A stretch of DNA of 64,000 nucleotides. It comes from Proteobacteria bacterium UBA6156 (lineage in GTDB: Bacteria; Pseudomonadota; Alphaproteobacteria; UBA2136; UBA6156). Position 1 is the stretch's first letter; the number at the start of each line of letters is the position of its first letter. This document shows positions 23,606-39,190 of this stretch, one piece after another. Location: assembly GCA_002422365.1 (NCBI GenBank), contig DIUO01000036.1, forward strand, positions 38,759-102,758, in the 5' to 3' direction. The position numbers were made by a program, and so were the translations under genes. A model generated the notes under the pieces. The model did no database searches. It worked only from the letters and a program-made list of their open reading frames with translations, and was not told the DNA's origin.

Positions 23606-23965
23606 ATGCTCACCGAGACACTCGCCTTCTACCCGGCGGCAGCCAAGGCCATTGCCCTGCATTGGCCTTGGTTCTGGCCGTTATGGGGCGGGGTCATGGG
23701 TGCGGTGCTGGGGTCGTTTCTCAACTGTGCCCGCTACCGCGTGCCGCGCGGCATTTCGTTGCGCCGCCCCCCCAGCCATTGCCCGGCCTGCAAAACGGTG
23801 CTGGGCGTGCCCGACCTCGTGCCCGTCCTCAGCTACCTGGCCCTGCGTGGCCGCTGCCGCCATTGCCGGGCACCCATCGGCCGCACCAGCCTGTGGCTGG
23901 AGGTCGCGCTGTTTACCGGCGGCTACCTGCTCACAGCCCTGTTCCAGGCTTGGCTGCTGGCCTAA
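23606..23965 (+). CDS. prepilin peptidase N-terminal zinc-ribbon domain only (TM1-CxxC...CxxC-TM2); catalytic A24 domain absent
   Basis: 119 aa. The pattern GSFLN..R....SHCPACKTVL...LVPVLSYLALRGRCRHCRAPI is typical of the PilD/TcpJ N-domain. The ORF stops at 23965 and the next clear gene starts in another frame. Confidence 0.55.
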   Translation: MLTETLAFYPAAAKAIALHWPWFWPLWGGVMGAVLGSFLNCARYRVPRGISLRRPPSHCPACKTVLGVPDLVPVLSYLALRGRCRHCRAPIGRTSLWLEVALFTGGYLLTALFQAWLLA

Positions 23966-24070
23966 GCTCTGGGGGCGGTGCCGAATTCCCACAGCCCGCC
24001 GCGCCAAAACCGCCTTTCCGCCCGCACCGCCTTAACAAAGCCCGCTGCACACGGCACACTTGCATCCAGC

Positions 24071-25720
24071 ATGCTGCCTGTCCGCGCCCGTTCTCGTACC
24101 GCCCTTGGCCTCACCTTGGTCGGCTTGGCTGTGGCCGCGCCCGTGCAGGCCCCCGTGCAGGCACAGGTTGCCTGGCAGAACGTGGCCGCCGCCCAAAGCA
24201 CCGCCGCTTACGCCCCCCTGCAAACGCCCGTGGTGCAAAAAGGCACGGTGTTGTGGCGCCGTTTGGGCAACGAATCCGAGCGCACCCCCACTCCCGCCGT
24301 CAGCGACGAAATCGAACGCCTCCAGCAGGCGCTGCAAGCCACCTCCCAGCAGCTGGCGGGGCTAGAGCAAAAAATCGACAGCACCGCCGACCTCCGCACC
24401 CAAACTGCCGCCACCGTCACCAATGTCACCTCTCTGGCGCAAGAGAGCATCCGCGCCATGGAACGCATGGCCGAGCAAACCGCCGCCACGACCGACCTCA
24501 AACTCTCCAAGGCCCAGCTGGAAAACCGGCTCGCCGTTGTCGAAGAAGCCCGCCTGGCCGCCAAAGACGCCGAAGACCGCGCCCGAGCCTACACCGGCGC
24601 CCAAATTGCCGAACTGCGCAACCTCGCCCAGACCGAAACCGCCAACGTCGCCGCCGCCCTGCGCATTTATGCCGACCTCCAGCTGGCGCAGGCCCAAGCC
24701 ACAACCTCCGCCACCTTGGCCAACCTCGCCCAGGCCACCCGCCAGTCGGTCACCGACCTCGACCAACGCACCAACCAGCGCATGGGCGTGCTCTGGCAGG
24801 CCGCCAACATCCAGGCGGAAAAACTGGCAAACGAGAAAGCCGCCGCCGTGGCCGCCAGCCTCGCCGCACTCCAGCAGCAAACCGCCGCCGACAAACTCGA
24901 ACCCGCGCAAATCCGCGCCATTGCCGAGCAAACCGTGGCCAACTCCGCGCCAGAGTTCCGCGCCCTCGCCCTTCAAACGCTTAAAGATGGCCAAGATTAC
25001 ATCCGCAGCGTCGCCCGCAGTGCGGTGCAAGATGCCGACCCCGGCATGACCGCCGCCCTGGCCAACGCCGCGCGCGATGTCATCACCAAAGACGACAAAG
25101 TCGTCTTCGCCATCCGCAAAGCGGTGGCGGAAGAACTGCAAGGCCTGGCCACCGGGGCCACCGCCACCACCACACCCGACGGCCGCACGGTGCTGGGGCC
25201 CGACCACGGCAGTGGCACACCCGAGGTCGAGCTCGATCCCAACCGCCTGCGCATCGCCCAGCTGTTGGCGCCGGAAGGCGGACTCGCCCCGGACGCCGCC
25301 CTCACTCCCGCCCAACTGGCGGCCCTCAGCCCCGCCGCAGGCCCGGCGCAAGGCCATACAGCGGTTGGCGGCCAGCAGGCCTGGTCGGCGCAGGGCACCA
25401 GCCTGTTGCGCCCGCGCCCGCGCAGCAGCTGGATGGACCTGCGCCAATACAAAGTCGTGCTCCACCAAGACAACCAGACGCTGGAAGAGCTGCTCGCCGA
25501 CATCCTCAAGCGGGCTGAACCCTTTACCGGCCCCTGGCAGGTGCGCTGGAAGATCACCGAACCCAACCGCGACCTCATGCAAGAACGCTTCAGCCTCGAT
25601 GCCGAAGCCCCGTTCGAAGAGTTCATCAGCTATCTTGCGCAATATATTGTCAACGATAGAGGCGTTAAACTCAGCGTAAGCCTGTTCGACAGCGAACGGA
25701 TTATTGTAATCTCCGATTAA
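24071..25720 (+). CDS. secreted coiled-coil protein with C-terminal STN/TcpQ-like domain
   Basis: ORF 23978..25720. The ATG at 24071 gives the signal sequence MLPVRARSRTALGLTLVGLAVAAPVQA. A long Ala/Gln-rich coiled-coil region follows. The C-terminus (LEELLADILKRAEPFTGPWQVRWKI...IIVISD) is paralogous to the C-termini of ORFs 12400 and 25720. Confidence 0.55.
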   Translation: MLPVRARSRTALGLTLVGLAVAAPVQAPVQAQVAWQNVAAAQSTAAYAPLQTPVVQKGTVLWRRLGNESERTPTPAVSDEIERLQQALQATSQQLAGLEQKIDSTADLRTQTAATVTNVTSLAQESIRAMERMAEQTAATTDLKLSKAQLENRLAVVEEARLAAKDAEDRARAYTGAQIAELRNLAQTETANVAAALRIYADLQLAQAQATTSATLANLAQATRQSVTDLDQRTNQRMGVLWQAANIQAEKLANEKAAAVAASLAALQQQTAADKLEPAQIRAIAEQTVANSAPEFRALALQTLKDGQDYIRSVARSAVQDADPGMTAALANAARDVITKDDKVVFAIRKAVAEELQGLATGATATTTPDGRTVLGPDHGSGTPEVELDPNRLRIAQLLAPEGGLAPDAALTPAQLAALSPAAGPAQGHTAVGGQQAWSAQGTSLLRPRPRSSWMDLRQYKVVLHQDNQTLEELLADILKRAEPFTGPWQVRWKITEPNRDLMQERFSLDAEAPFEEFISYLAQYIVNDRGVKLSVSLFDSERIIVISD

Positions 25721-27255
25721 TGATGCGCCTCACACCCCGCCGTGCCCTGTTTGCCGCCACCACCTTGCTGGCGGGCTGCGCGGGCATGGGGCAGCAGGCC
25801 GCCAGTGGCGGTTTTCCGGCCCCGCAGCCGAACGACGGCGGCATCGTCATCGCCGAGTCCCACATGGTCATGGGCGCGTCGGATGCCACCACCGTCACCG
25901 GCACCGTCGACGATTGCTCCGGCCCCGGCACCGGGGTGGTGGTCACCAGCACCCTGCACGACGCCCGCTTCCTCTTCGGCCCCAATGGCGAACCCTGCGA
26001 GGCCGCCGAAATGCTCTTCGATGGCCGCACCGAGGCCAACCGCCGCCAGGCCGACCCCGCCATTGCGCTCACCTTCCACGACAGCTTGGGCCCCAAGCCA
26101 GAAAGCCGCACCACCAGCTCGCTCCCCGGCCTCGAACCCATCCCCACCATCCGCCTGAAGTCGGAAATTCTCAGCACCATGGCGGCCATAGAACCCGCCG
26201 CCGGCAAGGGCGGCACCGTCCCGGCCCGCCCGGCCCCGGTGCAAGTGGCTGCCGTCAAAGCCGACCCTCTGGTCTCCACCCTCACCAGCTGGCAACGCCA
26301 AGACGACGCTTACGCCCGCCGCAGTGCCCAGGCCAATGCCAATGCCGAGGCCACCGCCGCCGCCAGCCGTGACCTCTCCCATATCGTGAAGGACACCCGC
26401 ACCACCACCAGTGCCGAAGCCATGGCCACCATGATGGCCGAACTCCGCGAGCGCGAACGCCAGGTGCAGGAAGAACAGCGCCGCCACGCCGAAACCCTCA
26501 AGCGTGCCCAAGAAAACCGCCAAATCACCGCCGCCGCCCGCACCCAATGGCAAAGTAAGGAGCACGAGCTCCAGGCCCAGCTCTCTGCCACCCAGCAGCG
26601 CATGGCGCAGTTCGAGCAACTCGCCCAGCGCCTGTCAGCCGACAAATCCGCCAAAGAGCAAGCCTATCAGGCCAAAATCAGCACCCTCACCGCCGACCTC
26701 CGCGCCGCCGAAGCCCAGGCCGATGTCTCACGGCGCGAGCTGATACTCGAAGCCGCCGCCAAAATTGCCGAAGCCGAGCAACTCGCCTCCGCCGCCAAAA
26801 TCCAGGAGCAACAGATCAAACTGCGCGAGGCCGCCCGCCTCAAGGCCGAAGCCGAAACCATGATGGACCGCGCCCTGGCCATGCAGGCTGGCGGCAATGT
26901 GGTGGTGGCCGGGGTGGGCGCCCCGCCCGCCGTGCCGCTGGCGCTGCTGCGCACGCCGGTGGCGGTGGTCGCCAACGGTAAATCGCTGCCGGATATCCTC
27001 ACCGACGTCCTCAAGCAGGCCGCCCCCCAGGCAGGCGAGTGGCAGGCCGACTGGCAATTGTCCGTCCCCCGCCAGCATATTTTGCAAGATACCTGGTCGC
27101 TCACCGCCGAAGCGCCGATCGAAGAGGTCCTCGCCCAGCTCAGCCAACAAGTCCAGGCCGCCCACGGCTTCGGCCTCACCTTCACCCAGTTCGCCCAGTC
27201 CCGCCTGCTGGTTGTCACCGATGCCACACCCCCCACCGCCCAAACCACCCCCTAA
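25720..27255 (+). CDS. lipoprotein with long coiled-coil region and C-terminal STN/TcpQ-like domain
   Basis: 511 aa. Lipobox LLAGC. An A/Q/E/R-rich coiled coil in the middle. The C-terminus LPDILTDVLKQAAPQAGEWQADWQL...LLVVTD is paralogous to the previous gene. The start overlaps the upstream stop (TAATG). Confidence 0.55.
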   Translation: MMRLTPRRALFAATTLLAGCAGMGQQAASGGFPAPQPNDGGIVIAESHMVMGASDATTVTGTVDDCSGPGTGVVVTSTLHDARFLFGPNGEPCEAAEMLFDGRTEANRRQADPAIALTFHDSLGPKPESRTTSSLPGLEPIPTIRLKSEILSTMAAIEPAAGKGGTVPARPAPVQVAAVKADPLVSTLTSWQRQDDAYARRSAQANANAEATAAASRDLSHIVKDTRTTTSAEAMATMMAELRERERQVQEEQRRHAETLKRAQENRQITAAARTQWQSKEHELQAQLSATQQRMAQFEQLAQRLSADKSAKEQAYQAKISTLTADLRAAEAQADVSRRELILEAAAKIAEAEQLASAAKIQEQQIKLREAARLKAEAETMMDRALAMQAGGNVVVAGVGAPPAVPLALLRTPVAVVANGKSLPDILTDVLKQAAPQAGEWQADWQLSVPRQHILQDTWSLTAEAPIEEVLAQLSQQVQAAHGFGLTFTQFAQSRLLVVTDATPPTAQTTP

Positions 27256-27329
27256 CAGGCAAATTCTTACAAACCCCTTGCAAACCTGCAATACCGCCCC
27301 ATAATCAGTATATCAAAGGAGATAAACTC

Positions 27330-27701
27330 ATGAATCAACGTACACTTCTCTTCAGCGCCGCCGCCGTGGCTGTCATGGCCCTCGCCGTCGCCAACCCCGC
27401 TTTTGCTCAGTCCGGTGGTGAAGCAGCTACAGCAGGGGCTGCTGCTGTCGATACACTTGTTGGTGCCATTACCGGTAACATCGGTTTGCTCATCGGTTTG
27501 GCCATTACTGTGGCGGGCCTCTGGGTCTGGATCATCGGTCAGAAAACCGGCGCTGGCCTCACTATGGTCATCGGTGGTGTACTCATCACCATGGCTCCGG
27601 GTTTGTTCAAGGGCGTCCGCGATATGGCCGTCGGTGTGGTAGGTCAATTCAGCGGATCAACAGTCTATGATGTTGACACCGCACGAGGTACGACTCGTTA
27701 A
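27330..27701 (+). CDS. VirB2/TraA/TrbC-like conjugative pilin precursor, copy 1
   Basis: 123 aa. RBS aaggag 8 nt upstream. Signal sequence ending AFA, then two hydrophobic helices separated by a short GQKTG loop. Confidence 0.6.
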   Translation: MNQRTLLFSAAAVAVMALAVANPAFAQSGGEAATAGAAAVDTLVGAITGNIGLLIGLAITVAGLWVWIIGQKTGAGLTMVIGGVLITMAPGLFKGVRDMAVGVVGQFSGSTVYDVDTARGTTR

Positions 27702-27708: not shown

Positions 27709-28032
27709 ATGAACCTTCTCGGCAAAACCCTGGCAGTATGTGCGGCACTCCTTCTGAGTGCCGCTTCTGCCTATGCTGCCGAGACTTCCGACGTTGGTAA
27801 AGTCGAAGTAGAACTGCTGGTCAACATCTTCACCGGCAACATCGGCCTCGTTATTGGCTTCATCGTCACCATCATGGGCGTGTTTATGTTCATCAAGGGC
27901 GACAGCGGCGGTGCTGTCTACGTCGTCGTGCTGGGTGTGCTCATTACCATGCTTCCAGGCATTTACAATGGTTTAAGGCTTATTTTGTGCCCCATTGCCG
28001 AATCCCTCGGCGGCCAGTGTGGTGGCGGCTAA
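27709..28032 (+). CDS. VirB2/TraA/TrbC-like conjugative pilin precursor, copy 2
   Basis: 107 aa. Signal sequence ending AYA, two hydrophobic helices separated by KGDSGG, and a C-terminal Cys pair (CPIAESLGGQC). Same architecture as the upstream paralog. Confidence 0.6.
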   Translation: MNLLGKTLAVCAALLLSAASAYAAETSDVGKVEVELLVNIFTGNIGLVIGFIVTIMGVFMFIKGDSGGAVYVVVLGVLITMLPGIYNGLRLILCPIAESLGGQCGGG

Positions 28033-29943: not shown

Positions 29944-30705
29944 ATGAACCTTTCTCGGGTCGTGCTGGCATGCTGCTTTATCGCCGCCATAAGTATGGCG
30001 TGGCCCGCGCGTGCCGACTACGACAACGACCCCTTCGACCCCCTCATAGCCCGCGACGCCTGGATGCTCATCGCCCGTGCCGAGCGGGAAAACGAAATCC
30101 CGGCAGGCCTGCTGCACGCCATGAGCTTAGTGGAAACCGGCAAAGGTATCCGCGGCTGGGTGCTGCCCTGGCCCTACACGGTCGGGGTCAACGGCACCGG
30201 CACGCAGCGCTTCACCAGCCGAGACGAAGCCCTCGCCGCTCTCAGCCGCTACCGCAAGCTCGGCTTTGTGCGCTACAACCTCACCGCCCAGGGGGTGCGC
30301 CTCAGCAAGGCCACCTCGGTGCAGGTCGCGGCGGCGCTCGGCGGGCTTCCGGCCAGCAGCGTCATCACGCTGGAAGGCATCAATTTCGGCCGCCGCTTCA
30401 ACAGCGAGACTGAAGCCGCCACCTTCCTCCGCAACATGTTCGCCCAGGGCTACCGCAATGTCGATGTCGGCATGATGCAAATCAACTGGCGCGTCCACAG
30501 CCAGCACTTCCGCAGTATCGAAGACGCCCTCAACCCTTCCACCAACCTCAACTACGCCGTGCGCTACTTGCTGGAGCACCGCCAAACCCGCGACTGGTGG
30601 GGCTCGGTCGGCCGTTACCACAGCGGCACCAGCCGCTACGCTAGCCGCTATATTCGTAATGTTTACAACATGTACCTTCGCATCCACCGGGTGAGCACCA
30701 GCTGA
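29944..30705 (+). CDS. lytic transglycosylase (SLT domain; VirB1/PilT(R64)-like role)
   Basis: ORF 29863..30705. Start at MNLSRVV (29944) with a signal sequence. SLT motifs AMSLVETG, DVGMMQINWRVH, NLNYAVRYL. Confidence 0.8.
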   Translation: MNLSRVVLACCFIAAISMAWPARADYDNDPFDPLIARDAWMLIARAERENEIPAGLLHAMSLVETGKGIRGWVLPWPYTVGVNGTGTQRFTSRDEALAALSRYRKLGFVRYNLTAQGVRLSKATSVQVAAALGGLPASSVITLEGINFGRRFNSETEAATFLRNMFAQGYRNVDVGMMQINWRVHSQHFRSIEDALNPSTNLNYAVRYLLEHRQTRDWWGSVGRYHSGTSRYASRYIRNVYNMYLRIHRVSTS

Positions 30706-32522
30706 TGACCGCCCCCCACCCGCCCGCACCCGCCTGGACGCCCCAACAGCAGCACGTGCTGGCCCACACCGGCAGCAGCCTGGTGGTGGGGGTGCCCGGC
30801 AGCGGCAAAACGGTGCTGTTGTTGGCGCAGGCCGAGCACCTGCTGGCCCAGGGCCACAAAGTCGCTCTGGCCACCTTTTCCTTCCGCAGCCACCAATATG
30901 TCAAATCGCTGGCAAGCCCGGCTCTGGTTAAGGTGTGGGATAAACTCAGCAGCGGCACCCTTCGCGACCTCGCCATCCAGCAGCTGCACACCGCCGGGCA
31001 AAGTTTCAGCTTTGCCAGCAACAATCAGGTGAGGGAAATCCTGCGCACCCTCATCCCCGCCCAGGCGTTTCCGGGCACCCTGGCCGACGCCGAGCACATC
31101 ATCCGCAGCGCCAAGGCCCGCGCCAAAAAATTGCCGGAGTCCGACCGCTACTACCCCTTCGTCCAAGCCTACCAAGCGCGGCTGGAAGAACTCGGCCTGG
31201 CCGACCGCCACGACATCGTCCGCCGCCATGTGCTGGGCATGCGCGATGGCTCCGTCCCGCCGCTGCCCGTCAGCCACCTGCTGCTGGATAACGTCCAGGA
31301 CGCCACCGAACTTCAGCTCATCTGGCTGCAAATGCACTTGGCCCACAGCATCACGCTCATGCTGGTGGGCGACGACGACCTCACCGCTTTCGGGCAAGAC
31401 GGTGCCCGTGGCCCGGCCGCCTTGGAGCAAATCGAAAGCTGGGGCGATATCACCCGCTTTAATCTCAGCCACAGCCACCGCCTGGCCCCGGCGTTGCTGC
31501 CGGCGGTGGCCAAGGTGGCGCGGCAACTGCGCACGCGCATTGCCAAAACGCCCGAGGCTGCTGCTCCCACACCCTCCCAGGCCGCAGTCATTCCCGCCAC
31601 CCTGCGGGTCGAGCACTTCCCCAATGCCCCCGCCGAGCATGTCTTTCTGGCCGAATACTGCCAGGCGCTGCTGCGCGGGCAACCCAATGCCGCGCGCGGC
31701 ACGGTCGGCATCATCACCCGCACCCATTTCGAGTCCGCCTGCATCACCCACGCCCTCCGCCGCCACGGCCTCAACCCCGCCAGCTACGCGCGGCTTATCT
31801 GGGAGGAACGTACCCCCCAAATCATCCTCTCCCTGCTCTATCTCATGCTCGGCCAGGGCAATAATGGCCACTTGCACTTGGTGTTGCTGGGCTTTGGGGT
31901 TCCCGCCCCGGCGGTTATGGCGTTGTTCCAGGCGGGCCTGCGGGCCGAGTCCTGGGGCGCCTCCGGCTTTGCCCTGCCGCCGCTCACGCACGAATCCCCT
32001 ACCACCGTCGCCGCCTTGCAGCAGGTGCGGCGCAGCCTGCGCACCGCCCACCAGTTGCTGCACATGCCGCAAACCCCGGCGCCCGAGAACCCCCTGACCC
32101 CCCGCACCATCTTCAAAGCTCTGGTGGCCGACCTTCTCCCGCACTTGCCGGAGTCCGAACACCCCGCCGCCCTGCTGGCCACCGACATGCTCCTCACCCT
32201 GTCCGGTAAACTGACGGAAGTTCTCCCCCGCGTCCGTACCGAAACCCTGCCGGATATGGCCAGCCCCATCGTGGTCGCACCGGTGCGCGAAACGCGCAAC
32301 CAGCAGTTCGGCACCGTCATCATTCCCTATGCCTCGGCCACCACCTGGCCACACCCGCCTTCGGCCTTGCTGGGGGCCGAGCCCGACCACGACCGCCGCC
32401 TCATGTACCTCGCGCTTACCCGCAGCGCCGGGTCGCTGGTCTTCACCCGCCACACGCCTGAGGCTTCGCCTTACGTGCAAGAGCTCCAGCAAAACCTCAA
32501 GCAGCAAACCCGCAAAGGCTAG
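30705..32522 (+). CDS. UvrD/Rep-family superfamily-1 DNA helicase
   Basis: 605 aa. Walker A GVPGSGKT; motif VI-like LMYLALTRSAGSLVF near the C-terminus; UvrD-like 1A/2A layout. The start overlaps the SLT gene stop by 1 nt (TGATG). Confidence 0.8.
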   Translation: MTAPHPPAPAWTPQQQHVLAHTGSSLVVGVPGSGKTVLLLAQAEHLLAQGHKVALATFSFRSHQYVKSLASPALVKVWDKLSSGTLRDLAIQQLHTAGQSFSFASNNQVREILRTLIPAQAFPGTLADAEHIIRSAKARAKKLPESDRYYPFVQAYQARLEELGLADRHDIVRRHVLGMRDGSVPPLPVSHLLLDNVQDATELQLIWLQMHLAHSITLMLVGDDDLTAFGQDGARGPAALEQIESWGDITRFNLSHSHRLAPALLPAVAKVARQLRTRIAKTPEAAAPTPSQAAVIPATLRVEHFPNAPAEHVFLAEYCQALLRGQPNAARGTVGIITRTHFESACITHALRRHGLNPASYARLIWEERTPQIILSLLYLMLGQGNNGHLHLVLLGFGVPAPAVMALFQAGLRAESWGASGFALPPLTHESPTTVAALQQVRRSLRTAHQLLHMPQTPAPENPLTPRTIFKALVADLLPHLPESEHPAALLATDMLLTLSGKLTEVLPRVRTETLPDMASPIVVAPVRETRNQQFGTVIIPYASATTWPHPPSALLGAEPDHDRRLMYLALTRSAGSLVFTRHTPEASPYVQELQQNLKQQTRKG

Positions 32523-32633
32523 CTCTGCCGCGGTGTTGCCCGTCAAAGGCTACCTTAAGGCTACCTTTTGGCCACACCCTGTCAGTTTTTTGCGGCCACA
32601 GGCGCTCACGTAAACTGACACCCCCCTCAAACC

Positions 32634-35039
32634 GTGGCATGCTGGGCCCAACAACAAAAAAGCATCGTCTCCCGCATGAAGAAGGCCACCAAAGCTGCCC
32701 CCCGCACCTCTGCCGCAGCCCGCAAATCTCCCGCCGCACCCTCCGGCGGCGCTAAATCCGCCAAGGTCGCTGCGGCGTCAGCGTCCGCCGGTAAAGTGTC
32801 GCCCAAAGTATTGCCCAAGGCTGTGCCTATGGCCCCGGCTGTAAAAGCGGCGGCGGCGGTTAAGGCACCCACCAAAGGCCAGCAACGCCAAATCGCTCGG
32901 GTGCAGGCCGAGGTCGATACCAAAAAAGCCAACGACGAAGGCTTCCAGCTGGCGCGCAAAAACGCCGTCAAATACCTGCACAGCCGCCGCCAGGCCATTT
33001 TCGCGCTGGCCCGGCACTTCCACCTGGATGCCGACGATCTTCAACAAGAAGCCTACGAAGTGCTGCTCACCTGCCTGCGCGACTTCAACCCCCTCTACAC
33101 CAAGGCCGACGGCTCCACCGTCAGCGTCCAGTTCAACACCTTTTTCGGCAACCGCTTAGAGGGCAAGGCGCTGGAGCAACGCAACCGCGACCCCGAATAC
33201 CAGGCCCGCCAGGCGCACGTGCAAGACATGTCCGACGAAGACCGCGCCGATTTCCGTAAAAACCCGCCCTTGCTGGTGCAACACCTCGACCAGGAAACCA
33301 CCCTGCAAGAAAACCTGCGCGGCGAAGTTGCCGCCGCCCAGCGCTCCCGCCAAACCAACATGGCCCTCAAGGTCGCGCAAGACAGCTTCATCGAGAAAAA
33401 ACTCAACGATCTCATCGCCGCCGAGCGCGACGACAAACGCCGCGCCGCCCTCATGCACGTCAAGGTCGGCGGGGTCAGCAGTTTTGAAGAAATTGCCTAC
33501 CACTTCGGCGTCACCGACAGCCGCGCCAGCCAGATCCTCAACGAGCTGATGGACGCCTTCTACGTCCAGCGCCTGCTCGACGGCGATCTCAAAAGCGTGA
33601 TGTACGACTTCCGCAAGCTCAGCATGCAGCCCAAGCGCAGCCAGCGCCTGCTGGAAGACGCCATGCGCCACGCCCCCGCCCCCCGCGCCGCCGACATCGC
33701 CGCCCTCTTCGGCACCGACTATCCCGAACTGCGCGAGGTGCTCACCTCGCTGCCGCGCCCCGGCCTGGCCACGGCGGCAGTGGCTGAAAATACCGGCGAA
33801 GCGCCCACCGAATCCGGCCCGGCCCTCCCCGCCCAACTCACCCCCGCCGAAGACGACCAGTTCCCGCTGCAAGCCGTGGAATGGCGCGACATTTCCGGCC
33901 TCACCGCCCTGGGCGTGGTGTTCCGCCCCACGCCCAGCCAGGCGCCAGAAGATATGGCCCATATCCGCCAAATATCCGCTCACCCGGCCGAGGCCTGGCC
34001 GCCCCTGCTCATCACGCCGGAAGGCGGAGTTATCGATGGCGAACGCCGCATTGCCGCCGCCCGCGCCAAGGGCATCACCCGCCTGCTGTGCCAGGTGCGC
34101 ACCATTCCCAGCCCGGCGCTGGCGCGCCAGTTGCGCGTGTGCCTCAACAGCCGCGTGCGCCCGCTCGATAAAATCGAACTCTACTTCGCCATCGGCGCCC
34201 TGTCCGAGCTCGGCCTCACCCAGGGCGTCATCGCTCAGGCCCTCGGCACCAGCCGCCCGAACGTGATCGTCTACGCCAAAGTGCGCGAAAAGGCCTCCCC
34301 CCGCCTGCGCCAGCTGTTCGAAGACGGCCTCATCCAGATCACCAACGCCAGCAGCGCGGCCGACCTCCCCGTGCAAGCCCAAGACGACATGGCCGACTTC
34401 ATCCGCCAATACGGCGCGGGCTGGGGCCGTGGCCCCCAGTTTAACGAGCTTTATGCCGCCGCCGCCGAAGGCCAGATTGCCGCACTGGTGCCCCCCCAAC
34501 TGGGCGGCCCCCAGCCCATGCCCGGCACGGTGCTGCCCATGCCGCGTTTCCCCGCGCCGCAGCACATCGAATCCCCTACCTCCGGCGCCCAATTGGTGGC
34601 CCCTCCCGGAGCACTATCGCCCACCCTGGCGGCAGCCCTTAAAAAACGGCAAGAGGCGCTCGAAACCGCCCTGCGCGACAGCGAAATCTGGGCCCGCCAG
34701 CGCGAAGCCACCATTGCCAGCCAAACCAGCCAGCTGCACGACCTCCGCCAGCAACTGGAAAGCTACAAGCGCGAGCTCGAAGCCCAAAGCCTGCTGCAAC
34801 ATGGCGATGCCGCCACCATGGCCAATTACCTGAAAGAAATGAAAGCCTTCTACGCGGTGCAAGAGCGCCTCGCCTCGGCCATCTACCAGCTGGAAAAAAC
34901 CCAAACCGCCGTGCGCAGCCTCAATCTCACCCACCGCCAAACGGTGGAACTTGAGCACCTGCTGGAAAAAATCGCCACCCTCCAAACCGCTTTGCGCGTG
35001 CAACTGGTCAAATCCCCCCCGCCGGAAAACCCGCGTTAG
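32634..35039 (+). CDS. multidomain fusion: Lys/Ala-rich H1-like tail, ECF-type sigma-70 region 2 and region 4, ParB/Srx N-terminal domain with HTH, and a C-terminal coiled coil
   Basis: 801 aa. Region-2-like DLQQEAYEVLLTCLRDFNP...FFGNRLEGKALEQRNRD. Region-4-like SSFEEIAYHFGVTDSRASQILNEL. ParB-N-like PLLITPEGGVIDGERRIAAARAKGITRL. HTH LGLTQGVIAQALGTSRPNV. The start is uncertain (32634 or the ATG at 32676). Confidence 0.65.
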   Translation: MACWAQQQKSIVSRMKKATKAAPRTSAAARKSPAAPSGGAKSAKVAAASASAGKVSPKVLPKAVPMAPAVKAAAAVKAPTKGQQRQIARVQAEVDTKKANDEGFQLARKNAVKYLHSRRQAIFALARHFHLDADDLQQEAYEVLLTCLRDFNPLYTKADGSTVSVQFNTFFGNRLEGKALEQRNRDPEYQARQAHVQDMSDEDRADFRKNPPLLVQHLDQETTLQENLRGEVAAAQRSRQTNMALKVAQDSFIEKKLNDLIAAERDDKRRAALMHVKVGGVSSFEEIAYHFGVTDSRASQILNELMDAFYVQRLLDGDLKSVMYDFRKLSMQPKRSQRLLEDAMRHAPAPRAADIAALFGTDYPELREVLTSLPRPGLATAAVAENTGEAPTESGPALPAQLTPAEDDQFPLQAVEWRDISGLTALGVVFRPTPSQAPEDMAHIRQISAHPAEAWPPLLITPEGGVIDGERRIAAARAKGITRLLCQVRTIPSPALARQLRVCLNSRVRPLDKIELYFAIGALSELGLTQGVIAQALGTSRPNVIVYAKVREKASPRLRQLFEDGLIQITNASSAADLPVQAQDDMADFIRQYGAGWGRGPQFNELYAAAAEGQIAALVPPQLGGPQPMPGTVLPMPRFPAPQHIESPTSGAQLVAPPGALSPTLAAALKKRQEALETALRDSEIWARQREATIASQTSQLHDLRQQLESYKRELEAQSLLQHGDAATMANYLKEMKAFYAVQERLASAIYQLEKTQTAVRSLNLTHRQTVELEHLLEKIATLQTALRVQLVKSPPPENPR

Positions 35040-35079
35040 CACTTGTCAAATGGCCTTTCCCGCACCAAACTTTAAGAAG

Positions 35080-36888
35080 ATGAGAATATTCGCCCACTTT
35101 GGTATATGTCTAGCGCTTACAGTAGCGTGTTTTATAACAATATCCTACAGTTATGCTCAAAATGGTCAGGGTGGCGGCACCAATACCTCTAATAATGTCC
35201 CAAGTGCCGACCTCTACCTCTCCCCCCGGCTGCCCGATAGCTATTCCTCCAGTCTCCGCTTCCCCCCCAGCGGCGCCATCAACATTTCTCCTAACGAGAA
35301 TAACGGGCCCATTTCCAACACTTTCGACCCCACCCTTGGCGCGGTCGGCGAAATCAGCAACTCACTCGGCTGCGCCGGGGTCGGTCAGGGAGAATTCACC
35401 AGCGGCCTCTTTAACATGCCGGAGGTTTATACCAAATTTCAGCAAGATGTTCAGTCTTCGCTCTCCAAGCAACTCCTGTCGCTCAACTTTGTCATGCCGC
35501 AAACCTCGGCCCTGTTCGACCAACTCAACACCATCGGCAACCAACGCTACGACCAATTCCAGCGCGGCTGCACCGTTACACCCGTTCAGGCCGACGCCAA
35601 ACAGAACTACATGCTGGCCTGCGTCGAGAAACTCATTCCGGAACGCGAGACAATCATAGAAGAGACGAACAATCAGCAGGCGCAAACCGCGCGTATCCCA
35701 GAAGATCAGATCGGCCCTATGGCTTACGCCCAAGCCTGGGAAATCTGCGCCAACCAGTACGTCAGCAACACCACTGCGATGGAAGTCCGGACGGAAAGAC
35801 TGACAGCTTATTATACGAAACTCCGTGAAGCCGAACGCGTCGACCTCGCCATACGCCCGTTACTGTGCCAAATCACGCAGGAGGGTGACGAAGACGGTGC
35901 CGGTTGCTGGGCCAAATTCCTCATCCCGCAAGTCCGTATTTGTCTAGGCAACAATCTGGAAGGTGGCTGCACCGAAGGTGTTTACGGCGTCAAAGAACCA
36001 CTCGTACCCATGCAACGCCTCTTCGACACGATGCGTTTCATCATGGAAAATGATGTCATTCAAAACCGTGTTGTGCCGTTCAACAACGGCATCCGCGCGC
36101 TGAACGCCTCCACCCGCCAGCAAGCTGCCCGAGAAGCCACCATCGTCATGAGCACAACCAAACTGACAGGAAGCAGCACCACACTGGTCGGCCAGGTAGC
36201 TGTTATGCCGACCGAGGCGGTACGCGATTTTCAGTTAAATTATCTCAGCTGCAAAAACAACGATGTTCTCAACGGCTATCGTCAATACAAACGCTTTATC
36301 GAAAAGCAAATGAACCAAAATGGGGCTACGTCCGATATACCCGACCTCCTTCCCTTTAATTTTGCAGTGATAGAATCCACTATAGAAAAAATGGAGCTCG
36401 CCGCCGAAGAGAATAGCACGTCCGACGAAGCCGACATTAAAGCCGTCTCGGCCCTGCTGGAATCGGCCATGGGCTGCACCGCCAACCAATCCATCCCGAT
36501 CTTCGACCCCAACATCACCGCAGCCCTGCAAACCACCTGCTCCGACGAAGACATCTATGCCTTCTATAGTATTGCGGGCAACGATGTTGCCGCCGCATCC
36601 ACACGTGATGTCTACCGCTACTTGAACTTCAAACTCAAGCAAGCCTATACACGCTTAATGACAGAAGCCATGGTGCCTGTGTCCGACACCACCAACACCT
36701 CGGTTAGCCCCACATATGGGCCAGAGCTGAACGCCAAATTCGCGCAGGTCGTCAAAGATGTGATGATTCCCTATACCGAAACACAAATCGAACGCCTTAA
36801 CGACATCAATGCGTCACGCGGCCAACTGGGGCAGCTGGTGAACGAAATCTACGCCAGTAAAAACGGCTGCAACCCAAAAACTCCGTAA
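35080..36888 (+). CDS. secreted Cys-rich protein (14 Cys), TraN-sized (602 aa) candidate mating-pair-stabilisation/outer-membrane protein
   Basis: ORF 34951..36888. Signal sequence MRIFAHFGICLALTVACFITISYSYA. Multiple spaced Cys residues. 602 aa, equal to F TraN; no motif-level confirmation is possible by eye. Confidence 0.45.
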   Translation: MRIFAHFGICLALTVACFITISYSYAQNGQGGGTNTSNNVPSADLYLSPRLPDSYSSSLRFPPSGAINISPNENNGPISNTFDPTLGAVGEISNSLGCAGVGQGEFTSGLFNMPEVYTKFQQDVQSSLSKQLLSLNFVMPQTSALFDQLNTIGNQRYDQFQRGCTVTPVQADAKQNYMLACVEKLIPERETIIEETNNQQAQTARIPEDQIGPMAYAQAWEICANQYVSNTTAMEVRTERLTAYYTKLREAERVDLAIRPLLCQITQEGDEDGAGCWAKFLIPQVRICLGNNLEGGCTEGVYGVKEPLVPMQRLFDTMRFIMENDVIQNRVVPFNNGIRALNASTRQQAAREATIVMSTTKLTGSSTTLVGQVAVMPTEAVRDFQLNYLSCKNNDVLNGYRQYKRFIEKQMNQNGATSDIPDLLPFNFAVIESTIEKMELAAEENSTSDEADIKAVSALLESAMGCTANQSIPIFDPNITAALQTTCSDEDIYAFYSIAGNDVAAASTRDVYRYLNFKLKQAYTRLMTEAMVPVSDTTNTSVSPTYGPELNAKFAQVVKDVMIPYTETQIERLNDINASRGQLGQLVNEIYASKNGCNPKTP

Positions 36889-37009
36889 CCCTACGGCCCC
36901 ACCGCCCGTTCTTTCACCATCATGTCTCTCGGCCACACACGATAACGGCTGACAACGCCGAAAAACTTGGGCATTATCCTGGCCAACGGTAACCAGGTAA
37001 CAACAATTC

Positions 37010-39190
37010 GTGGCGAATATGCAGCAGGTGATGACGGAGAGCGGGCAGGTGCCCCCGGTGTTGGCCGGGCGGTGGGACCTTCGCCTGGGCTATCACCCCT
37101 CGCTCAAGCGGCACTTGCCGATGCTAGCCGACCTGCCGCTGTTCGATACCACCGCAGCGCATCACCTTCATCTGCTGGAGCTCCCTCTTGCCCCCGCCCT
37201 CAGCGGTCATCACATGGTGGCCGATTCCGGTCTCATGGCGGCCGCTATGCCGCCGGGCGGCATGGCCGAGGCGGTCGACGAATATCCTCTTGCCCCCGTG
37301 TTCGTGAGAGACCTCTGCGGCCGTCCGGTGCACACCGGGCTTATGCCCTTGCCCGCCCCCCCTACGGTGCCGCTGTTTCCGCCCGGCTGCCGCCATCTGC
37401 CGGCCAGTCACCCGCTTTCATCGCAGCTGGAACGTCTGGTCTGGATGACCGCCCGCCGCCTGGAGTGCGCGCCCGTCTGCGGCTCTGCGGCCCTGGCCGG
37501 AGAACCCGACACCCGCCTCCGCGCCATGGTGGCCCAACCCCAAACCTACCCCTACAAGCTCCGCCCGGATACCTTCTATGCCGACGGCTGGCGCTTGCCG
37601 GTGGTGCCGCGCGTTTATGCCGTACCGGCGCCGCCGGTGCAGGCGCAGGCCGCCGCCGATGAACTGCTGGCCCGCTGGCAGGCCCGCCCCACGGGGCAAG
37701 ACTACGAAACCTTCTACGACGCCAACAACGGCGACGCCTGGTTTGAAGAGCTGTTTGAAAAAGGCTGCACCGTCATTCCCACGCTCGAGGCCTACAACGG
37801 CCGCTACCATGTCGGAGACGACTACGTCGCCACCGCCGTAGACCCCGGCCGCGCCGTAGCAGGCCTGCACGAAATCATCGAACACAGCGACTCCGACACC
37901 CCCGCCGGTACTATTCTCGATGTCCGCACCCCCGGCTGGGTCACCTCCACGGGCGTACATCCCGCGCAGGTAGTGGTCAGCAACGGCAGCGGCTGGCAGG
38001 CGCCGTCGGTGCCCTTACCACCATTGCCCAACCGCCGCTTGCCGCACCCGCGTGTCGGCGGCGCCTGGGGGGCTGTCTGGCTGCCCACCCACCCCGGCCA
38101 CTTTGCCGAACCCGCCCTTTACGACTGGAACATGACCGGCCATTTTGTGCAGGTATCCGGCCCCTTGTGGGATCCTCTCCATTACATCTACACCAGCACC
38201 GAAGCCCTCACGCGCGCCTTCCGCCGCCCGCACCCGCAGGTGCCGGGGGCCTATGTGCTGCCCCCGTCGCTCAAGCTCCGCTTTCATCCGCTGGCCCCTC
38301 AAACCTGGTACGACACCCTCAACGAGCGCACCGCCCAACAACGCCAGACCGACCCCGCCCACCCGCTCTACGGCAGTACAATCGATACCCTGCCGCTGGG
38401 CCGCCAGGTGGCTCCGGCCGGGTATCACCCGTTGCCTTGGGCGCTGGAGTACGAACTCGATCCCGCCCACTTCCCCAGCCTGCATCCCGCGCACCTCGAA
38501 GCGCCATGCCCGCCCGATCTCGAGCCGCGCCTCATGCCGCCCGCCCAGCTGGCCGATCCCGCAGCCTACCTCGGCTACCACGTCGCGGTCACCGAGCCGA
38601 TGCGCGAAGCTCAGCAACAAGCGGCCGCAGCGCCCTTCAGCGAAGCAAGTTGCGACATAAAGGAAACACTCCTTCCCCTCACTTTGCATACCCAACCCGA
38701 GCGGGCGCTCCCTGCTTATGTGCCGGATATGCCCGCCAGCCAGCTTGCCGTGAACATCAAGCGCCTGTTTGCTGCCCGGGCTTACCGCCAGCAGTTGCAG
38801 GCGTTGGCCGAGGCCTGGAATCAACCCGGCCTGCCGGCCGCCTTCTACCAATTCCGCGAGTCTGCCTTGGCGTGGCGCCGCTTGCGCTACCGCCTCTTCA
38901 CCAAGTATGCCGCCACCTGGCAGCAGGCCGCCGCCGTGGGGATAGACCTCCCCACCGCCGAGCAGCTGGTGCCGGAGTCCGATCCCTTGCAGCACCAGCG
39001 GGTGCAGCGCGCCCGTCTGGGCGGCCTGGGGGTGGTGCCGCCACTGCCTCTCCTGCGGGCGGACGGTTTGCCATCGCCTGCGGCACAGGCTAAACTTGCA
39101 CCTGCACGGCGGCGCAGCCAGGGCAAGGGGCTACCTGCTTCTCCCGCTAAGCCGCGCCAAACCGTTAACAATCCTGGGGAAAATACCTAG
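37010..39190 (+). CDS. large Pro-rich hypothetical protein (726 aa), no signal peptide or TM
   Basis: A long ORF in the operon orientation with coding-like GC3 bias. 13% Pro with many PxxP segments. No recognisable catalytic motifs. Confidence 0.45.
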   Translation: MANMQQVMTESGQVPPVLAGRWDLRLGYHPSLKRHLPMLADLPLFDTTAAHHLHLLELPLAPALSGHHMVADSGLMAAAMPPGGMAEAVDEYPLAPVFVRDLCGRPVHTGLMPLPAPPTVPLFPPGCRHLPASHPLSSQLERLVWMTARRLECAPVCGSAALAGEPDTRLRAMVAQPQTYPYKLRPDTFYADGWRLPVVPRVYAVPAPPVQAQAAADELLARWQARPTGQDYETFYDANNGDAWFEELFEKGCTVIPTLEAYNGRYHVGDDYVATAVDPGRAVAGLHEIIEHSDSDTPAGTILDVRTPGWVTSTGVHPAQVVVSNGSGWQAPSVPLPPLPNRRLPHPRVGGAWGAVWLPTHPGHFAEPALYDWNMTGHFVQVSGPLWDPLHYIYTSTEALTRAFRRPHPQVPGAYVLPPSLKLRFHPLAPQTWYDTLNERTAQQRQTDPAHPLYGSTIDTLPLGRQVAPAGYHPLPWALEYELDPAHFPSLHPAHLEAPCPPDLEPRLMPPAQLADPAAYLGYHVAVTEPMREAQQQAAAAPFSEASCDIKETLLPLTLHTQPERALPAYVPDMPASQLAVNIKRLFAARAYRQQLQALAEAWNQPGLPAAFYQFRESALAWRRLRYRLFTKYAATWQQAAAVGIDLPTAEQLVPESDPLQHQRVQRARLGGLGVVPPLPLLRADGLPSPAAQAKLAPARRRSQGKGLPASPAKPRQTVNNPGENT

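What the first reader, a model, noticed from the sequence alone, without database searches (positions are those of the whole stretch)
32634..35039. Unusual fusion: histone-H1-like K/A tail + ECF-type sigma domain + ParB N-domain with HTH + C-terminal coiled coil
One 801-aa ORF contains sigma-70 region-2-like and region-4-like segments and then a ParB/Srx-type N-domain with the GERRxxAA-like motif (GERRIAAARAKG) and an HTH. It is preceded by a ~120-aa Lys/Ala/Pro-rich tail and ends in a ~150-aa coiled coil. I am not aware of a sigma-ParB architecture. It sits inside the T4SS-like locus next to a UvrD-like helicase, which suggests a dedicated DNA-binding, partition-like or transcription-control factor for this system.
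Basis: partly seen in the sequence, partly recalled or inferred. Interest (0 to 1): 0.72.

Follow-up and report, generated by a model that had tools for sequence, protein, structure and literature searches.

The report
Sigma-factor–ParB fusion in secretion locus
One conserved gene in a DNA/protein-secretion gene cluster of uncultured alphaproteobacteria joins a divergent sigma-factor-like module to a ParB-type nucleotide-binding DNA-binding module and a helical dimerisation tail, so it is probably a DNA-tethered transcription controller of that cluster, of a kind only recently recognised.

Summary
ORF 32634-35039 (+) exists. Its true start is probably ATG 32676, giving 787 aa.

**Architecture**
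- A disordered Lys/Ala/Pro tail of about 70 aa, not about 120.
- A divergent sigma-70-family module with sigma2 and sigma4.
- A ParB N-domain with an invariant GxxR motif, followed by a ParB-type HTH.
- About 135 aa of long helices at the C-terminus.

**Not an artefact**
- More than 130 full-length homologues (41-100% identity) keep the same architecture.
- The gene holds the same position in the cluster: pilin-TraE-SLT-UvrD-TARGET-X-Y-TrbI-TraC.
- Homologues sit on chromosomal MAG contigs of up to 1.26 Mb.
- There are no relatives in plasmid, phage or viral collections, and no ParA nearby.

**Conserved DNA element**
- A CTGTCAG...CTGACA element lies at the gene's own promoter in genomes of 29-64% GC.
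- The two cores are spaced by 1, 2 or 3 helical turns.

**Best reading (inferred, not shown)**
- It is an orphan ParB-like, NTP-gated, dimeric DNA binder that carries an RNA-polymerase-binding sigma module.
- It would control its own promoter and the type IV secretion genes.
- This is analogous to BisD/BisC of ICEclc, KorB/KorA of RK2, and the T4 clamp with gp55.

**Novelty**
- A 2025 survey mentions ParB-CTPase-Sigma70 fusions through one ATP-binding phage protein. This family is unrelated to that protein and uncharacterised.
- Verdict: new variant of a known kind, interest about 0.66.

The parts
32579..32620 (+). Bipartite conserved element CTGTCAG-N28-CTGACA at the gene's own promoter. It is a candidate operator or loading site. 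The downstream core doubles as a -35-like hexamer.
   Evidence: It is the only match in the 64-kb window, where 0.01 is expected by chance. CTGACA lies upstream of the orthologue in 28 of 33 loci with GC content of 29-64%. An inverted partner is present in 18 loci, with start-to-start spacing of 12, 22-24 or 33-35 nt. No such pair occurs elsewhere in 571 kb of locus sequence. CTGACA is the first or second most enriched intergenic 6-mer.
32638..32643 (+). -10-like hexamer CATGCT, 17 nt after CTGACA.
   Evidence: Orthologous promoters carry CATTCT, CTAAGG, CTATAC or CTAGCC 16-18 nt after CTGACA. This is a pattern match only; no transcription start site has been mapped.
32634..35039 (+). The ORF as listed: 801 codons plus the stop codon, with a GTG start.
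32676..32888 (+). Probable true start (ATG, M15) and the Lys/Ala/Pro-rich disordered tail (residues 15-85).
   Evidence: Homologues start MSKATKA... and their tail length varies. A 787-aa version is on record. pLDDT is below 50.
32889..33758 (+). Sigma-70-family-like module (residues 86-375). It contains sigma2 (about 116-197, nt 32979-33224), a conserved linker with the invariant motifs RNRDPEYQARQA and PPLLVQHLD (nt 33180-33290), sigma4 with an invariant HTH (262-316, nt 33417-33581), and three further helices (317-375).
33759..33833 (+). Disordered linker 1 (residues 376-400).
   Evidence: pLDDT is below 50 and the segment is poorly conserved.
33834..34109 (+). ParB/Srx-type N-domain (residues 401-492). 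Box I is F430-R431. Box II is D468-G469-E-R471-R472 (nt 34035-34061).
34110..34493 (+). ParB-type DNA-binding domain (residues 493-620). It holds a degenerate Box III (L504-N505-S-R507; nt 34131-34160) and the HTH at 525-553 (nt 34206-34292).
   Evidence: The Foldseek alignment to Noc, ParB and KorB covers about 210 columns. The Pfam KorB domain is found in 8 members and HTH hits are present.
34494..34616 (+). Disordered Pro-rich linker 2 (residues 621-661).
   Evidence: pLDDT is below 50 and the alignment is gappy here.
34617..35018 (+). C-terminal long-helix (coiled-coil-like) domain (residues 662-795), a presumed dimerisation module.
   Evidence: AlphaFold2 gives helices 663-721, 726-762 and 767-793. 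The segment is rich in L, A, Q and E with 2 Pro and 1 Gly. Matches to HlyD and SMC are of the coiled-coil type.
36949..36977 (+). Second CTGACA-N17-CATTAT promoter-like site, upstream of the 726-aa gene Y (37010-39190), which heads the TrbI-TraC part of the cluster.
   Evidence: It is conserved in L002, L003 and L004, always 61 nt before the ORF start.
30705..32522 (+). UvrD-like SF1 helicase, the invariable upstream neighbour.
   Evidence: Pfam UvrD-helicase E 3.2e-12. Synteny in 26 of the loci that have enough flank.

Best explanation
**What it is.** The gene encodes a lineage-specific, orphan ParB-like transcription controller that is a core component of a chromosomal F-like type IV secretion / type IVb pilus gene cluster.

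**How it most likely works.**
- The protein most likely dimerises through its C-terminal long helices.
- It would bind DNA through its ParB-type HTH, its sigma4 HTH, or both.
- It would use its ParB N-domain as a nucleotide (CTP or ATP) gated switch.
- Through its N-terminal sigma2/sigma4 module it would engage RNA polymerase.
- Promoter-specificity or activator function would therefore be held on the DNA of the cluster.
- The conserved, helically phased CTG(T/A)CA pair that overlaps the -35 region of its own promoter is the likely autoregulatory site, loading site, or both.
- A second CTGACA promoter in front of the downstream T4SS core operon is a likely target.

**Shown:** the domain composition, its conservation, the fixed gene position, the absence of ParA, and the conserved cis element.

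**Inferred:** dimerisation, nucleotide binding, RNA polymerase binding, which HTH reads the element, and the direction of regulation.
For: **Domain assignments.**
- Sigma module.
- ParB N-domain and HTH.
- Helical C-terminus and two disordered linkers.

**Residues that matter are conserved.**
- Q138 and E139 are invariant in a DLxQExxExLLxCxRDF motif. From my own knowledge, this aligns with the region 2.2 core-binding QE of sigma-70.
- The sigma4.2 helix FGVTDSRASQ is invariant in 116 sequences.
- ParB Box II G469/R472, N505, R507 and the HTH residues R541 and N543 are invariant or nearly so.

**The architecture fits a clamp.** The order N-gate domain, HTH, about 40-aa linker, dimerisation domain parallels ParB and BisD (PMC12409273).

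**Fixed place in the cluster.** The order pilin-TraE-SLT-UvrD-TARGET-X-Y-TrbI-TraC holds in nearly all related loci.

**It is an orphan.** No ParA, no LG(R/K)GL motif.

**Conserved cis element.** It sits at the gene's own promoter with spacing of 1, 2 or 3 helical turns and occurs nowhere else in 571 kb. A second CTGACA-N17-CATTAT site precedes the downstream operon.

**Precedents.**
- The ParB-like CTP clamp BisD activates T4SS/transfer promoters of ICEclc with BisC (PMC12409273).
- KorB-KorA silences RK2 promoters (PMC11790492).
- The T4 sliding clamp activates gp55 (sigma-like) transcription (PMC7892883).
Against: - The sigma module is very divergent. The window protein scores 27.8 bits against a curated cut-off of 42.9.
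- A family profile finds no sigma factor among PDB sequences or among 1.84 billion representative proteins.
- Foldseek gives no significant match for the N-domain.
- RNA polymerase binding is untested. Sigma-like domains can be mimics that bind other partners; PhyR is an example from my own knowledge.
- ParB Box III lacks the Glu of ENxxR (L504) and its Arg is shifted. Hydrolysis, or even binding, may therefore differ. The one tested ParB-Sigma70 fusion, a phage protein, binds ATP rather than CTP (PMC12704722).
- No compact parS-type palindrome is conserved within 10 kb either side.
- The promoters with CTGACA look like ordinary alphaproteobacterial housekeeping promoters (-35 TTGACA-like, -10 GCTAnnnT). 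The fused sigma module need not read them.
- All organisms are uncultured and there are no expression data.
Confidence: 0.5

Rival explanations
1. The protein is a DNA-processing or DNA-targeting accessory of the secretion machine and not a transcription factor. The ParB module and the basic tail would coat or mark the DNA substrate, together with the adjacent UvrD-like helicase and the coupling protein. This would resemble the ParB homologue needed for DNA secretion by the gonococcal genetic island T4SS. The sigma-like part would serve only as an extra HTH DNA-binding domain.
For: The gene is invariably adjacent to a UvrD-like helicase and lies inside an F-like T4SS cluster that has a coupling-protein-like ATPase. 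No relaxase is recognised, so unconventional DNA processing is conceivable. The protein has a basic tail. The ParB requirement in the gonococcal island is from my own knowledge.
Against: The sigma2 sub-domain, which does not bind duplex DNA in known sigma factors, is the best conserved part of the protein, with an invariant core-binding-type QE motif. The conserved cis element sits at promoters and not at an oriT-like site. There is no evidence that this T4SS moves DNA.
Confidence: 0.17
2. The N-terminal module is a sigma mimic, as in the alphaproteobacterial anti-anti-sigma factor PhyR. It would bind an anti-sigma-like partner, or another protein of the cluster, in a nucleotide- or DNA-dependent partner switch. 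It would not bind RNA polymerase or promoters itself.
For: The sigma module is highly divergent and fails curated thresholds. It is always fused and never found alone. The precedent of a sigma-like domain fused to a signalling domain in Alphaproteobacteria is from my own knowledge. The cluster's promoters look like housekeeping promoters.
Against: No anti-sigma-like gene was recognised among the conserved neighbours. The sigma4.2 recognition helix is invariant over 116 sequences. That fits a fixed DNA or RNA polymerase target as well as it fits a partner protein.
Confidence: 0.15
3. The protein is a bona fide alternative sigma factor whose ParB and coiled-coil part acts as a built-in regulator. 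It would sequester or release the sigma part according to nucleotide state or DNA binding, without any sliding or loading on the locus.
For: The evidence is the same as for the sigma assignment. Sigma factors with fused C-terminal regulatory domains are known, for example ECF groups with C-terminal extensions (my own knowledge).
Against: No promoter motif distinct from the housekeeping type was found upstream of the cluster's operons. The ParB HTH residues are conserved as if they bind DNA.
Confidence: 0.13
4. The long ORF is an artefact, with two genes joined by a frameshift or a chimeric assembly.
For: None was found.
Against: The identical protein occurs in four independent data sources. 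More than 115 full-length homologues of 683-797 aa have the same domain order. The linkers vary in sequence but are always in frame.
Confidence: 0.01

Closest known systems
BisD of ICEclc (Pseudomonas), a ParB-like CTP clamp fused to a transcription-activation domain that works with BisC (PMC12409273)
   Same: Both are orphan ParB-like N-domain plus HTH proteins with a GxxR motif. Both have a long flexible linker to an all-helical dimerising domain and a second module devoted to transcription. Both are encoded inside a T4SS-carrying gene cluster whose promoters they control (shown for BisD, inferred here). Neither has a ParA partner.
   Different: In BisD the activation domain is C-terminal, of unknown fold, and needs BisC. 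Here the transcription module is N-terminal and belongs to the sigma-70 family. No sequence-family match was found: there was no hit to any ICE ParB model of NCBIfam. BisD keeps ENxxR, whereas this family has xNxR. BisD loads at 23-bp palindromes inside genes, and none was found here. BisD is on a mobile ICE; this gene is on chromosomes of uncultured Alphaproteobacteria.
KorB of IncP plasmid RK2, a ParB-family CTP-dependent sliding clamp and repressor locked by KorA/TrbA (PMC11790492, PMC13584720)
   Same: The fold of the N-domain and HTH is shared (Foldseek 8qa9 E 4e-4; Pfam KorB domain in 8 of 66 members). Both regulate conjugation/T4SS operons.
   Different: KorB has a ParA partner (IncC), 13-bp OB palindromes and separate co-repressors. 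It has no RNA-polymerase-type domain.
ParB-CTPase-Sigma70 fusion listed in the 2025 PNAS survey of the ParB-CTPase fold (phage protein uvig_297896_22; PMC12704722)
   Same: One polypeptide combines a ParB-type nucleotide-binding fold with a Sigma70-annotated domain. The paper notes it only as 'transcriptional regulation'.
   Different: That protein is from a phage, binds ATP, and has Box II GEHRVRA against GERRIAA here. No relative of the present family exists in IMG/VR, phage or plasmid collections. Most members of the present family escape Pfam PF02195 and the Sigma70 Pfam models, so a Pfam-based survey would miss them.
Phage T4 late transcription, where the sliding clamp gp45 tethers the sigma-like gp55 with gp33 (PMC7892883)
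   Same: The functional idea is shared: a DNA-encircling or DNA-tracking protein holds a promoter-specificity subunit on DNA.
   Different: T4 uses separate proteins and a PCNA-type clamp loaded at nicks or replication forks. Nothing is homologous apart from the sigma2 part. The analogy is untested here.
Canonical chromosomal ParB/Spo0J and Noc
   Same: These are the best sequence and structure matches for residues 401-620. The GxRR motif, the Asn of Box III and the HTH are shared.
   Different: The family has no ParA, no ParA-binding motif, no parS palindrome and no ParB C-terminal domain. The Box III Glu is missing, and an extra 375 N-terminal residues are present.
PhyR, a sigma-like domain fused to a receiver domain in Alphaproteobacteria (my own knowledge)
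   Same: It is a sigma2-sigma4-like module fused to a signalling module in the same bacterial class.
   Different: In PhyR the sigma-like part binds the anti-sigma NepR and not RNA polymerase. No NepR-like neighbour was found here.

Membership tests
Sigma-70 family (sigma2 + sigma4; TIGR02937 / Pfam Sigma70_r2, r4) | Significant match to a curated family model over both sigma2 and sigma4 | tested here: inconclusive
   For the window protein TIGR02937 gives E 1.6e-6 but 27.8 bits, below the cut-off of 42.9. 62 of 66 members match, best E 1.5e-12, which is about 48 bits by my calculation. The match is a single stretch over model positions 6-158 of 165. Pfam Sigma70_r4 matches 12 of 66 members and Sigma70_r2 matches 2 of 66.
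Sigma-70 family (sigma2 + sigma4; TIGR02937 / Pfam Sigma70_r2, r4) | Sigma2 three-dimensional fold | tested here: met
Sigma-70 family (sigma2 + sigma4; TIGR02937 / Pfam Sigma70_r2, r4) | Region 2.2 core-binding motif and region 4.2 HTH | tested here: met
   The motif D-L-x-Q138-E139-x-Y-E-x-L-L-x-C-x-R-D-F and the helix F291-G-V-T-D-S-R-A-S-Q300 are invariant in 116 sequences. Their equivalence to the sigma-70 QE motif and the VTRERIRQ helix comes from alignment by eye and my own knowledge.
Sigma-70 family (sigma2 + sigma4; TIGR02937 / Pfam Sigma70_r2, r4) | Binds RNA polymerase core and directs promoter-specific initiation | not testable with these tools
   This needs biochemistry. No promoter motif distinct from the housekeeping type was found in the cluster.
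ParB-CTPase clamp family (ParB/Spo0J, Noc, KorB, BisD) | ParB/Srx N-domain fold followed by a ParB-type HTH domain | tested here: met
   Foldseek probability is 1.00 to Noc 7nfu, ParB 6sdk, 6t1f and 1vz0, and KorB 8qa9, over 180-214 columns. TIGR00180 matches 46 of 66 members, all below its cut-off of 58.45 in the members inspected.
ParB-CTPase clamp family (ParB/Spo0J, Noc, KorB, BisD) | Box II GxxR phosphate-binding motif | tested here: met
   D468, G469 and R472 are invariant. R471 is present in 107 of 116 sequences.
ParB-CTPase clamp family (ParB/Spo0J, Noc, KorB, BisD) | Box III ENxxR, including the Glu needed for hydrolysis | tested here: not met
   The Asn is kept (N505 in 115 of 116). 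The Glu position is L, V or I (L504). The Arg lies at +2 (R507) and not at +3. [quoted passage not shown]
ParB-CTPase clamp family (ParB/Spo0J, Noc, KorB, BisD) | C-terminal dimerisation domain joined by a flexible linker, which closes the clamp | tested here: inconclusive
   A 40-residue disordered linker and a 135-residue helical domain are present. They are not homologous to the ParB C-terminal domain, and no dimer was modelled.
ParB-CTPase clamp family (ParB/Spo0J, Noc, KorB, BisD) | Palindromic loading site (parS, NBS, OB or bisS) | tested here: inconclusive
   No compact palindrome is shared among the loci. The only conserved element is the split CTGTCAG...CTGACA pair. One locus (L024) has the cores back to back as TTCCTGACATGTCAGGAA.
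ParB-CTPase clamp family (ParB/Spo0J, Noc, KorB, BisD) | Nucleotide binding or hydrolysis and DNA entrapment | not testable with these tools
   Sequence cannot predict whether the ligand is CTP or ATP (PMC12704722).
ParABS partition system | Adjacent ParA ATPase and an N-terminal ParA-binding LG(R/K)GL motif | tested here: not met
   No K[GS]GxGK[ST] Walker A motif occurs in any frame of the window or of 33 related loci. The target has no LG(R/K)GL motif.
BisD family of ICEclc-type elements | Sequence membership, a BisDact C-terminal domain and a BisC partner gene | tested here: not met
   No NCBIfam ICE-type ParB model was hit even at E <= 10. The activation module differs in kind and in position. 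No FlhC-like neighbour appears in the Pfam scans of the neighbouring genes.

The most novel reading that the evidence does not exclude
The protein is a sigma factor covalently tethered to a nucleotide-gated ParB-type DNA clamp. The dimer would load at the phased CTG(T/A)CA element, close around DNA, and slide along the roughly 40-kb pilus/T4SS cluster. It would carry its own RNA-polymerase specificity module to successive promoters. This would be a single-polypeptide counterpart of T4 gp45-gp55 and of BisD-BisC. It would be the first case in which a promoter-specificity subunit is itself a mobile DNA clamp.
Probability: 0.2. Interest if true: 0.88.

Novelty: new variant of a known kind. Interest (0 to 1): 0.66.

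Why it matters
ParB-type CTP switches were thought to serve chromosome segregation. KorB (2025) and BisD (2025) then showed that they can also act as sliding regulators of conjugation genes, each through a separate partner protein.

In this family the ParB module is fused directly to a sigma-70-type module. It is also a fixed core gene of a secretion cluster across a whole uncultured lineage. That would give a natural, compact system for asking how a DNA clamp talks to RNA polymerase. It would also show whether sigma function can be delivered along DNA.

The family further marks an undescribed, vertically inherited F-like T4SS plus type IVb pilus cluster in MAG-only Alphaproteobacteria. The biology of that cluster (conjugation, DNA release, effector delivery or predation) is unknown.

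Tried and rejected
- **Assembly or frameshift artefact.** Rejected.
- **Profile-to-sequence searches for sigma factors with the family's own N-domain profile.** There was no hit in PDB sequences. No canonical sigma factor appeared among 1.84 billion representatives; only 16 hits came back, all family members or fragments.
- **Foldseek of the N-domain model against the PDB.** Nothing was significant. The AFDB library was not available.
- **Search for a parS-like compact palindrome shared among loci.** None was found. A general repeat search of the cluster was also uninformative.
- **Search for a promoter motif special to the cluster.** The other promoters look like alphaproteobacterial housekeeping promoters (CTTGRC-N17-GCTAAGGT). 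The fused sigma module therefore has no identified cognate promoter.
- **Mobile-element origin.** No match was found in plasmids, phage genomes or IMG/VR. There is no tRNA in the window.
- **Taxonomic placement through an ABC-F housekeeping protein.** The hits were only unnamed MAGs, with one relative labelled Micavibrio sp.. The search did show that housekeeping identity and target identity fall in parallel on the same contigs.
- **Crude heptad score for the coiled coil.** It was not discriminating.


Full report
**1. The observation**

The window holds an 801-codon ORF at 32634-35039 on the + strand, starting with GTG. It lies in a long run of + strand genes.

Three things point to ATG 32676 (residue 15, MKKATKAAPR...) as the real start:
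- Close homologues begin MSKATKA... at the aligned position.
- A 787-residue version of the identical protein is on record at JGI.
- A -10-like hexamer of the conserved upstream promoter lies at 32638-32643, inside the first codons of the GTG-started ORF.

Another pipeline called the same protein from M66, giving 736 aa.

**2. Anatomy**

AlphaFold2 with a 66-sequence family alignment gave a mean pLDDT of 80.
- Confident blocks: residues 81-375, 400-620 and 663-795.
- Disordered segments: 1-76, 377-394 and 623-661.

*(a) Tail.* Residues 15-85 are 32% Ala, 17% Lys and 11% Pro, with a net charge of +15. The segment is low-complexity and its length varies among homologues from about 5 to about 60 residues. 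It is about 70 residues long, not about 120.

*(b) Sigma-like module.* This is the best conserved part of the protein.
- The NCBIfam sigma-70 superfamily model TIGR02937 matches residues 116-306 with E 1.6e-6 and 27.8 bits, against a curated cut-off of 42.9.
- It matches 62 of 66 members, best E 1.5e-12.
- In ten distant members it matches as a single stretch over model positions 6-158 of 165, at 23-33 bits.
- Pfam Sigma70_r4 matches 12 members and Sigma70_r2 matches 2.
- Q138, E139, E142, L145, C147, R149 and D150 are invariant in 116 sequences, as is the helix F291-GVTDSRASQ-300. By eye these line up with the region 2.2 core-binding motif and the region 4.2 recognition helix of sigma-70. That equivalence rests on my own knowledge and not on a tool result.

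There is also negative evidence.
- The family's own profile finds no sigma factor among PDB sequences.
- It finds none among 1.84 billion representatives.
- Foldseek is not significant.

The module is therefore a real but very divergent sigma-70 relative. 'ECF-type' is only an approximation.

*(c) ParB module.*
- phmmer finds Spo0J 6sdk with E 2e-5.
- The family profile finds Spo0J 1vz0 (4.4e-6), then ParB and Noc.
- Foldseek finds Noc 7nfu (5.5e-6), ParB 6sdk, 6t1f and 1vz0, and KorB 8qa9 (4e-4), with probability 1.00 over 180-214 columns. That covers the nucleotide-binding N-domain and the HTH domain.
- TIGR00180 matches 46 of 66 members.
- Box II (D468, G469, R471, R472) is essentially invariant.
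- Box I keeps F430 and R431.
- Box III keeps N505 and has R507. It lacks the Glu of ENxxR, with L, V or I at position 504.
- The HTH (525-553) keeps R541, N543, V546, Y547 and K549.

*(d) C-terminus.* There are three long helices (663-721, 726-762, 767-793). The segment is rich in L, A, Q and E and has almost no Pro or Gly.

**3. Not an artefact, and not mobile**

Evidence against an artefact:
- More than 130 homologues of 41-100% identity cover 87-98% of the query.
- 115 of them are 690-797 aa long and align end to end.
- The identical protein occurs in independent ENA, Logan, NCBI and JGI assemblies.

Distribution of the family:
- At 50% clustering the family has only about ten full-length representatives. 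No clear stand-alone sigma-only version exists; the short hits look like fragments.
- All carriers are uncultured MAGs labelled Alphaproteobacteria, Proteobacteria or 'Magnetococcales'. Some labels are plainly wrong species names. Contigs reach 1.26 Mb.

Evidence for vertical inheritance on chromosomes:
- An ABC-F housekeeping protein from the window has its closest relatives on the same contigs, with parallel identity values.
- Locus GC content ranges from 29 to 64%.
- There are no matches in PLSDB plasmids, phage genomes or IMG/VR.

**4. Context**

Genes upstream of the target, in window order:
- A TraF-like thioredoxin (5238-6293) and a coupling-protein-like ATPase (6730-8142).
- A type IVb pilus block: TcpQ-like, secretin, PilB-type ATPase, PilC-type protein and a prepilin-like protein.
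- Two VirB2/TrbC-like pilin candidates and a weak TraE-like protein.
- An SLT transglycosylase and a UvrD-like helicase.

Genes downstream of the target:
- Two large proteins without family matches, X and Y.
- A TrbI/VirB10-like protein.
- A small protein.
- A TraC/VirB4-like ATPase.
- An 866-aa protein with no family match.

Ordinary chromosomal genes flank the cluster.

The order pilin-TraE-g29113-SLT-UvrD-TARGET-X-Y-TrbI-small-TraC is kept in nearly every related locus that has enough flank.

There is no ParA-type Walker A motif in any frame of the window or of 33 related loci. The target has no ParA-binding LG(R/K)GL motif. No relaxase was recognised.

**5. A conserved cis element**

The target gene is preceded by CTGTCAG-N28-CTGACA at 32579-32620. 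This is the only such pair in the window, where 0.01 is expected by chance.

Across the related loci:
- The hexamer CTGACA lies upstream of the orthologue in 28 of 33 loci, whatever the GC content.
- In 18 loci an inverted partner lies upstream, with start-to-start spacing of 12 (1 case), 22-24 (12 cases) or 33-35 (6 cases). That corresponds to one, two or three helical turns.
- No such pair occurs anywhere else in 571 kb of locus sequence.
- One locus (L024) has the two cores back to back as an 18-bp palindrome.
- CTGACA is the most enriched intergenic 6-mer in the AT-rich clade and the second most enriched in the GC-rich clade, at 9-10 fold.

In the GC-rich clade:
- The downstream core sits 16-18 nt before a -10-like box.
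- A second CTGACA-N17-CATTAT site lies 61 nt before gene Y (window 36949-36977).

The sequence itself is conserved, and not merely its pairing potential. The element is therefore a protein-binding DNA site and not an RNA hairpin.

Phasing by whole helical turns fits a dimer whose DNA-binding heads hang on flexible linkers, as this protein's would. The binder was not identified. The promoters otherwise look like alphaproteobacterial housekeeping promoters.

**6. How it most likely works**

Shown:
- A conserved protein that combines a sigma-70-type module, a ParB-type nucleotide-binding and DNA-binding module, and a helical domain.
- Its fixed place in a T4SS/pilus cluster.
- No ParA.
- A conserved, phased operator-like element at its own promoter.

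Inferred: the protein dimerises through the C-terminal helices. The ParB part acts as an NTP-gated DNA-binding switch or clamp. The sigma part engages RNA polymerase. Together they would control the protein's own promoter and the T4SS operons.

The domain order N-domain, HTH, long linker, dimerisation domain is that of ParB and of BisD. BisD of ICEclc has been shown to load at bisS, spread over about 50 kb, and co-activate 11 transfer promoters with BisC. KorB-KorA and the T4 gp45-gp55 system are further precedents.

I give this reading a confidence of about 0.5. Three rivals remain open:
- a DNA-processing accessory of the T4SS;
- a PhyR-like sigma mimic;
- a sigma factor with a built-in regulatory domain.

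The nucleotide could be CTP or ATP. The survey of the ParB-CTPase fold found that its one Sigma70 fusion binds ATP and that specificity cannot be predicted from sequence.

**7. Comparison with what is known, and novelty**

[quoted passage not shown] The representative it tested is a phage protein, uvig_297896_22, with Box II GEHRVRA, and it binds ATP. Nothing more is said about it.

The present family differs in several ways:
- Its Box II is GERRIAA.
- It has no relatives in viral collections.
- It carries both sigma2 and sigma4, a ParB HTH and a coiled-coil domain.
- It mostly escapes the Pfam models such a survey relies on.

It is not a member of the BisD or KorB families by sequence. It fails the ParABS criteria.

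I class it as a new variant of a known kind, namely ParB-fold transcription regulators of T4SS gene clusters. The most novel reading still open is a sigma factor that is itself a sliding clamp (probability about 0.2).

**8. Verdict**

The finding is confirmed, with corrections to the start codon and the tail length. Interest is 0.66: this is a conserved, uncharacterised architecture that bears directly on a very recent question, but all functional statements are inferences from sequence.

Noticed in passing
window 27330-27701 and about 27709-28032: Two small paralogous ORFs each have a signal peptide and two hydrophobic helices. They look like VirB2/TrbC-type T4SS pilins. A TTGCAA-N16-CATAAT promoter-like site lies just upstream (about 27296-27323).
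   Followed up: partly
window about 23650-23975: A short ORF carries CxxC...CxxC motifs. It corresponds to a prepilin-peptidase N-terminal domain alone (PF06750 in the orthologous 110-aa genes of L001 and L002), with no peptidase body.
   Followed up: no
window 5238-8142 and the whole cluster 5200-47500: The cluster is a divergent F-like T4SS (TraF-like, coupling-protein-like ATPase, TraE-like, TrbI, TraC) joined to a type IVb pilus operon. No relaxase was recognised. Several large conserved proteins have no family match at all: 34951-36888, 37010-39190, 43898-46498 and 25720-27255.
   Followed up: partly
window 30705-32522: The last 40 residues of the UvrD-like helicase match helicase IV (PRK11054, E 2.6e-9). 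Helicase-IV/HelD-type proteins associate with RNA polymerase in other bacteria, which may or may not be relevant next to a sigma-like gene.
   Followed up: no
window 32546-32567: A perfect 11-bp tandem repeat, AAGGCTACCTT x2, lies between the UvrD stop codon and the conserved CTGTCAG element.
   Followed up: no
window 1-64000: GC skew is negative in almost every 2-kb bin (down to -0.24) and AT skew is mostly positive, while nearly all genes are on the + strand. The coding strand is therefore C- and A-rich throughout.
   Followed up: no
related loci, e.g. L015 9900-9960 and L016; window 32568-32620: A CACA tract lies 3-8 nt upstream of most CTG(T/A)CA cores. CTGWCAG is nearly palindromic, so the element could also be read as a direct repeat of CACA-N-CTGWCA(G), not only as an inverted repeat.
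   Followed up: partly
L019 12106 and L033 12088: In two AT-rich relatives a conserved CCTGTCAGGAATTGAT site lies immediately downstream of the target gene, in front of the next gene. This mirrors the second CTGACA site before gene Y in the GC-rich clade.
   Followed up: partly
window 58234-60468 (-): The window holds an unusually long flagellin of 744 aa, with ordinary N- and C-terminal flagellin domains and a middle region of about 500 residues.
   Followed up: no
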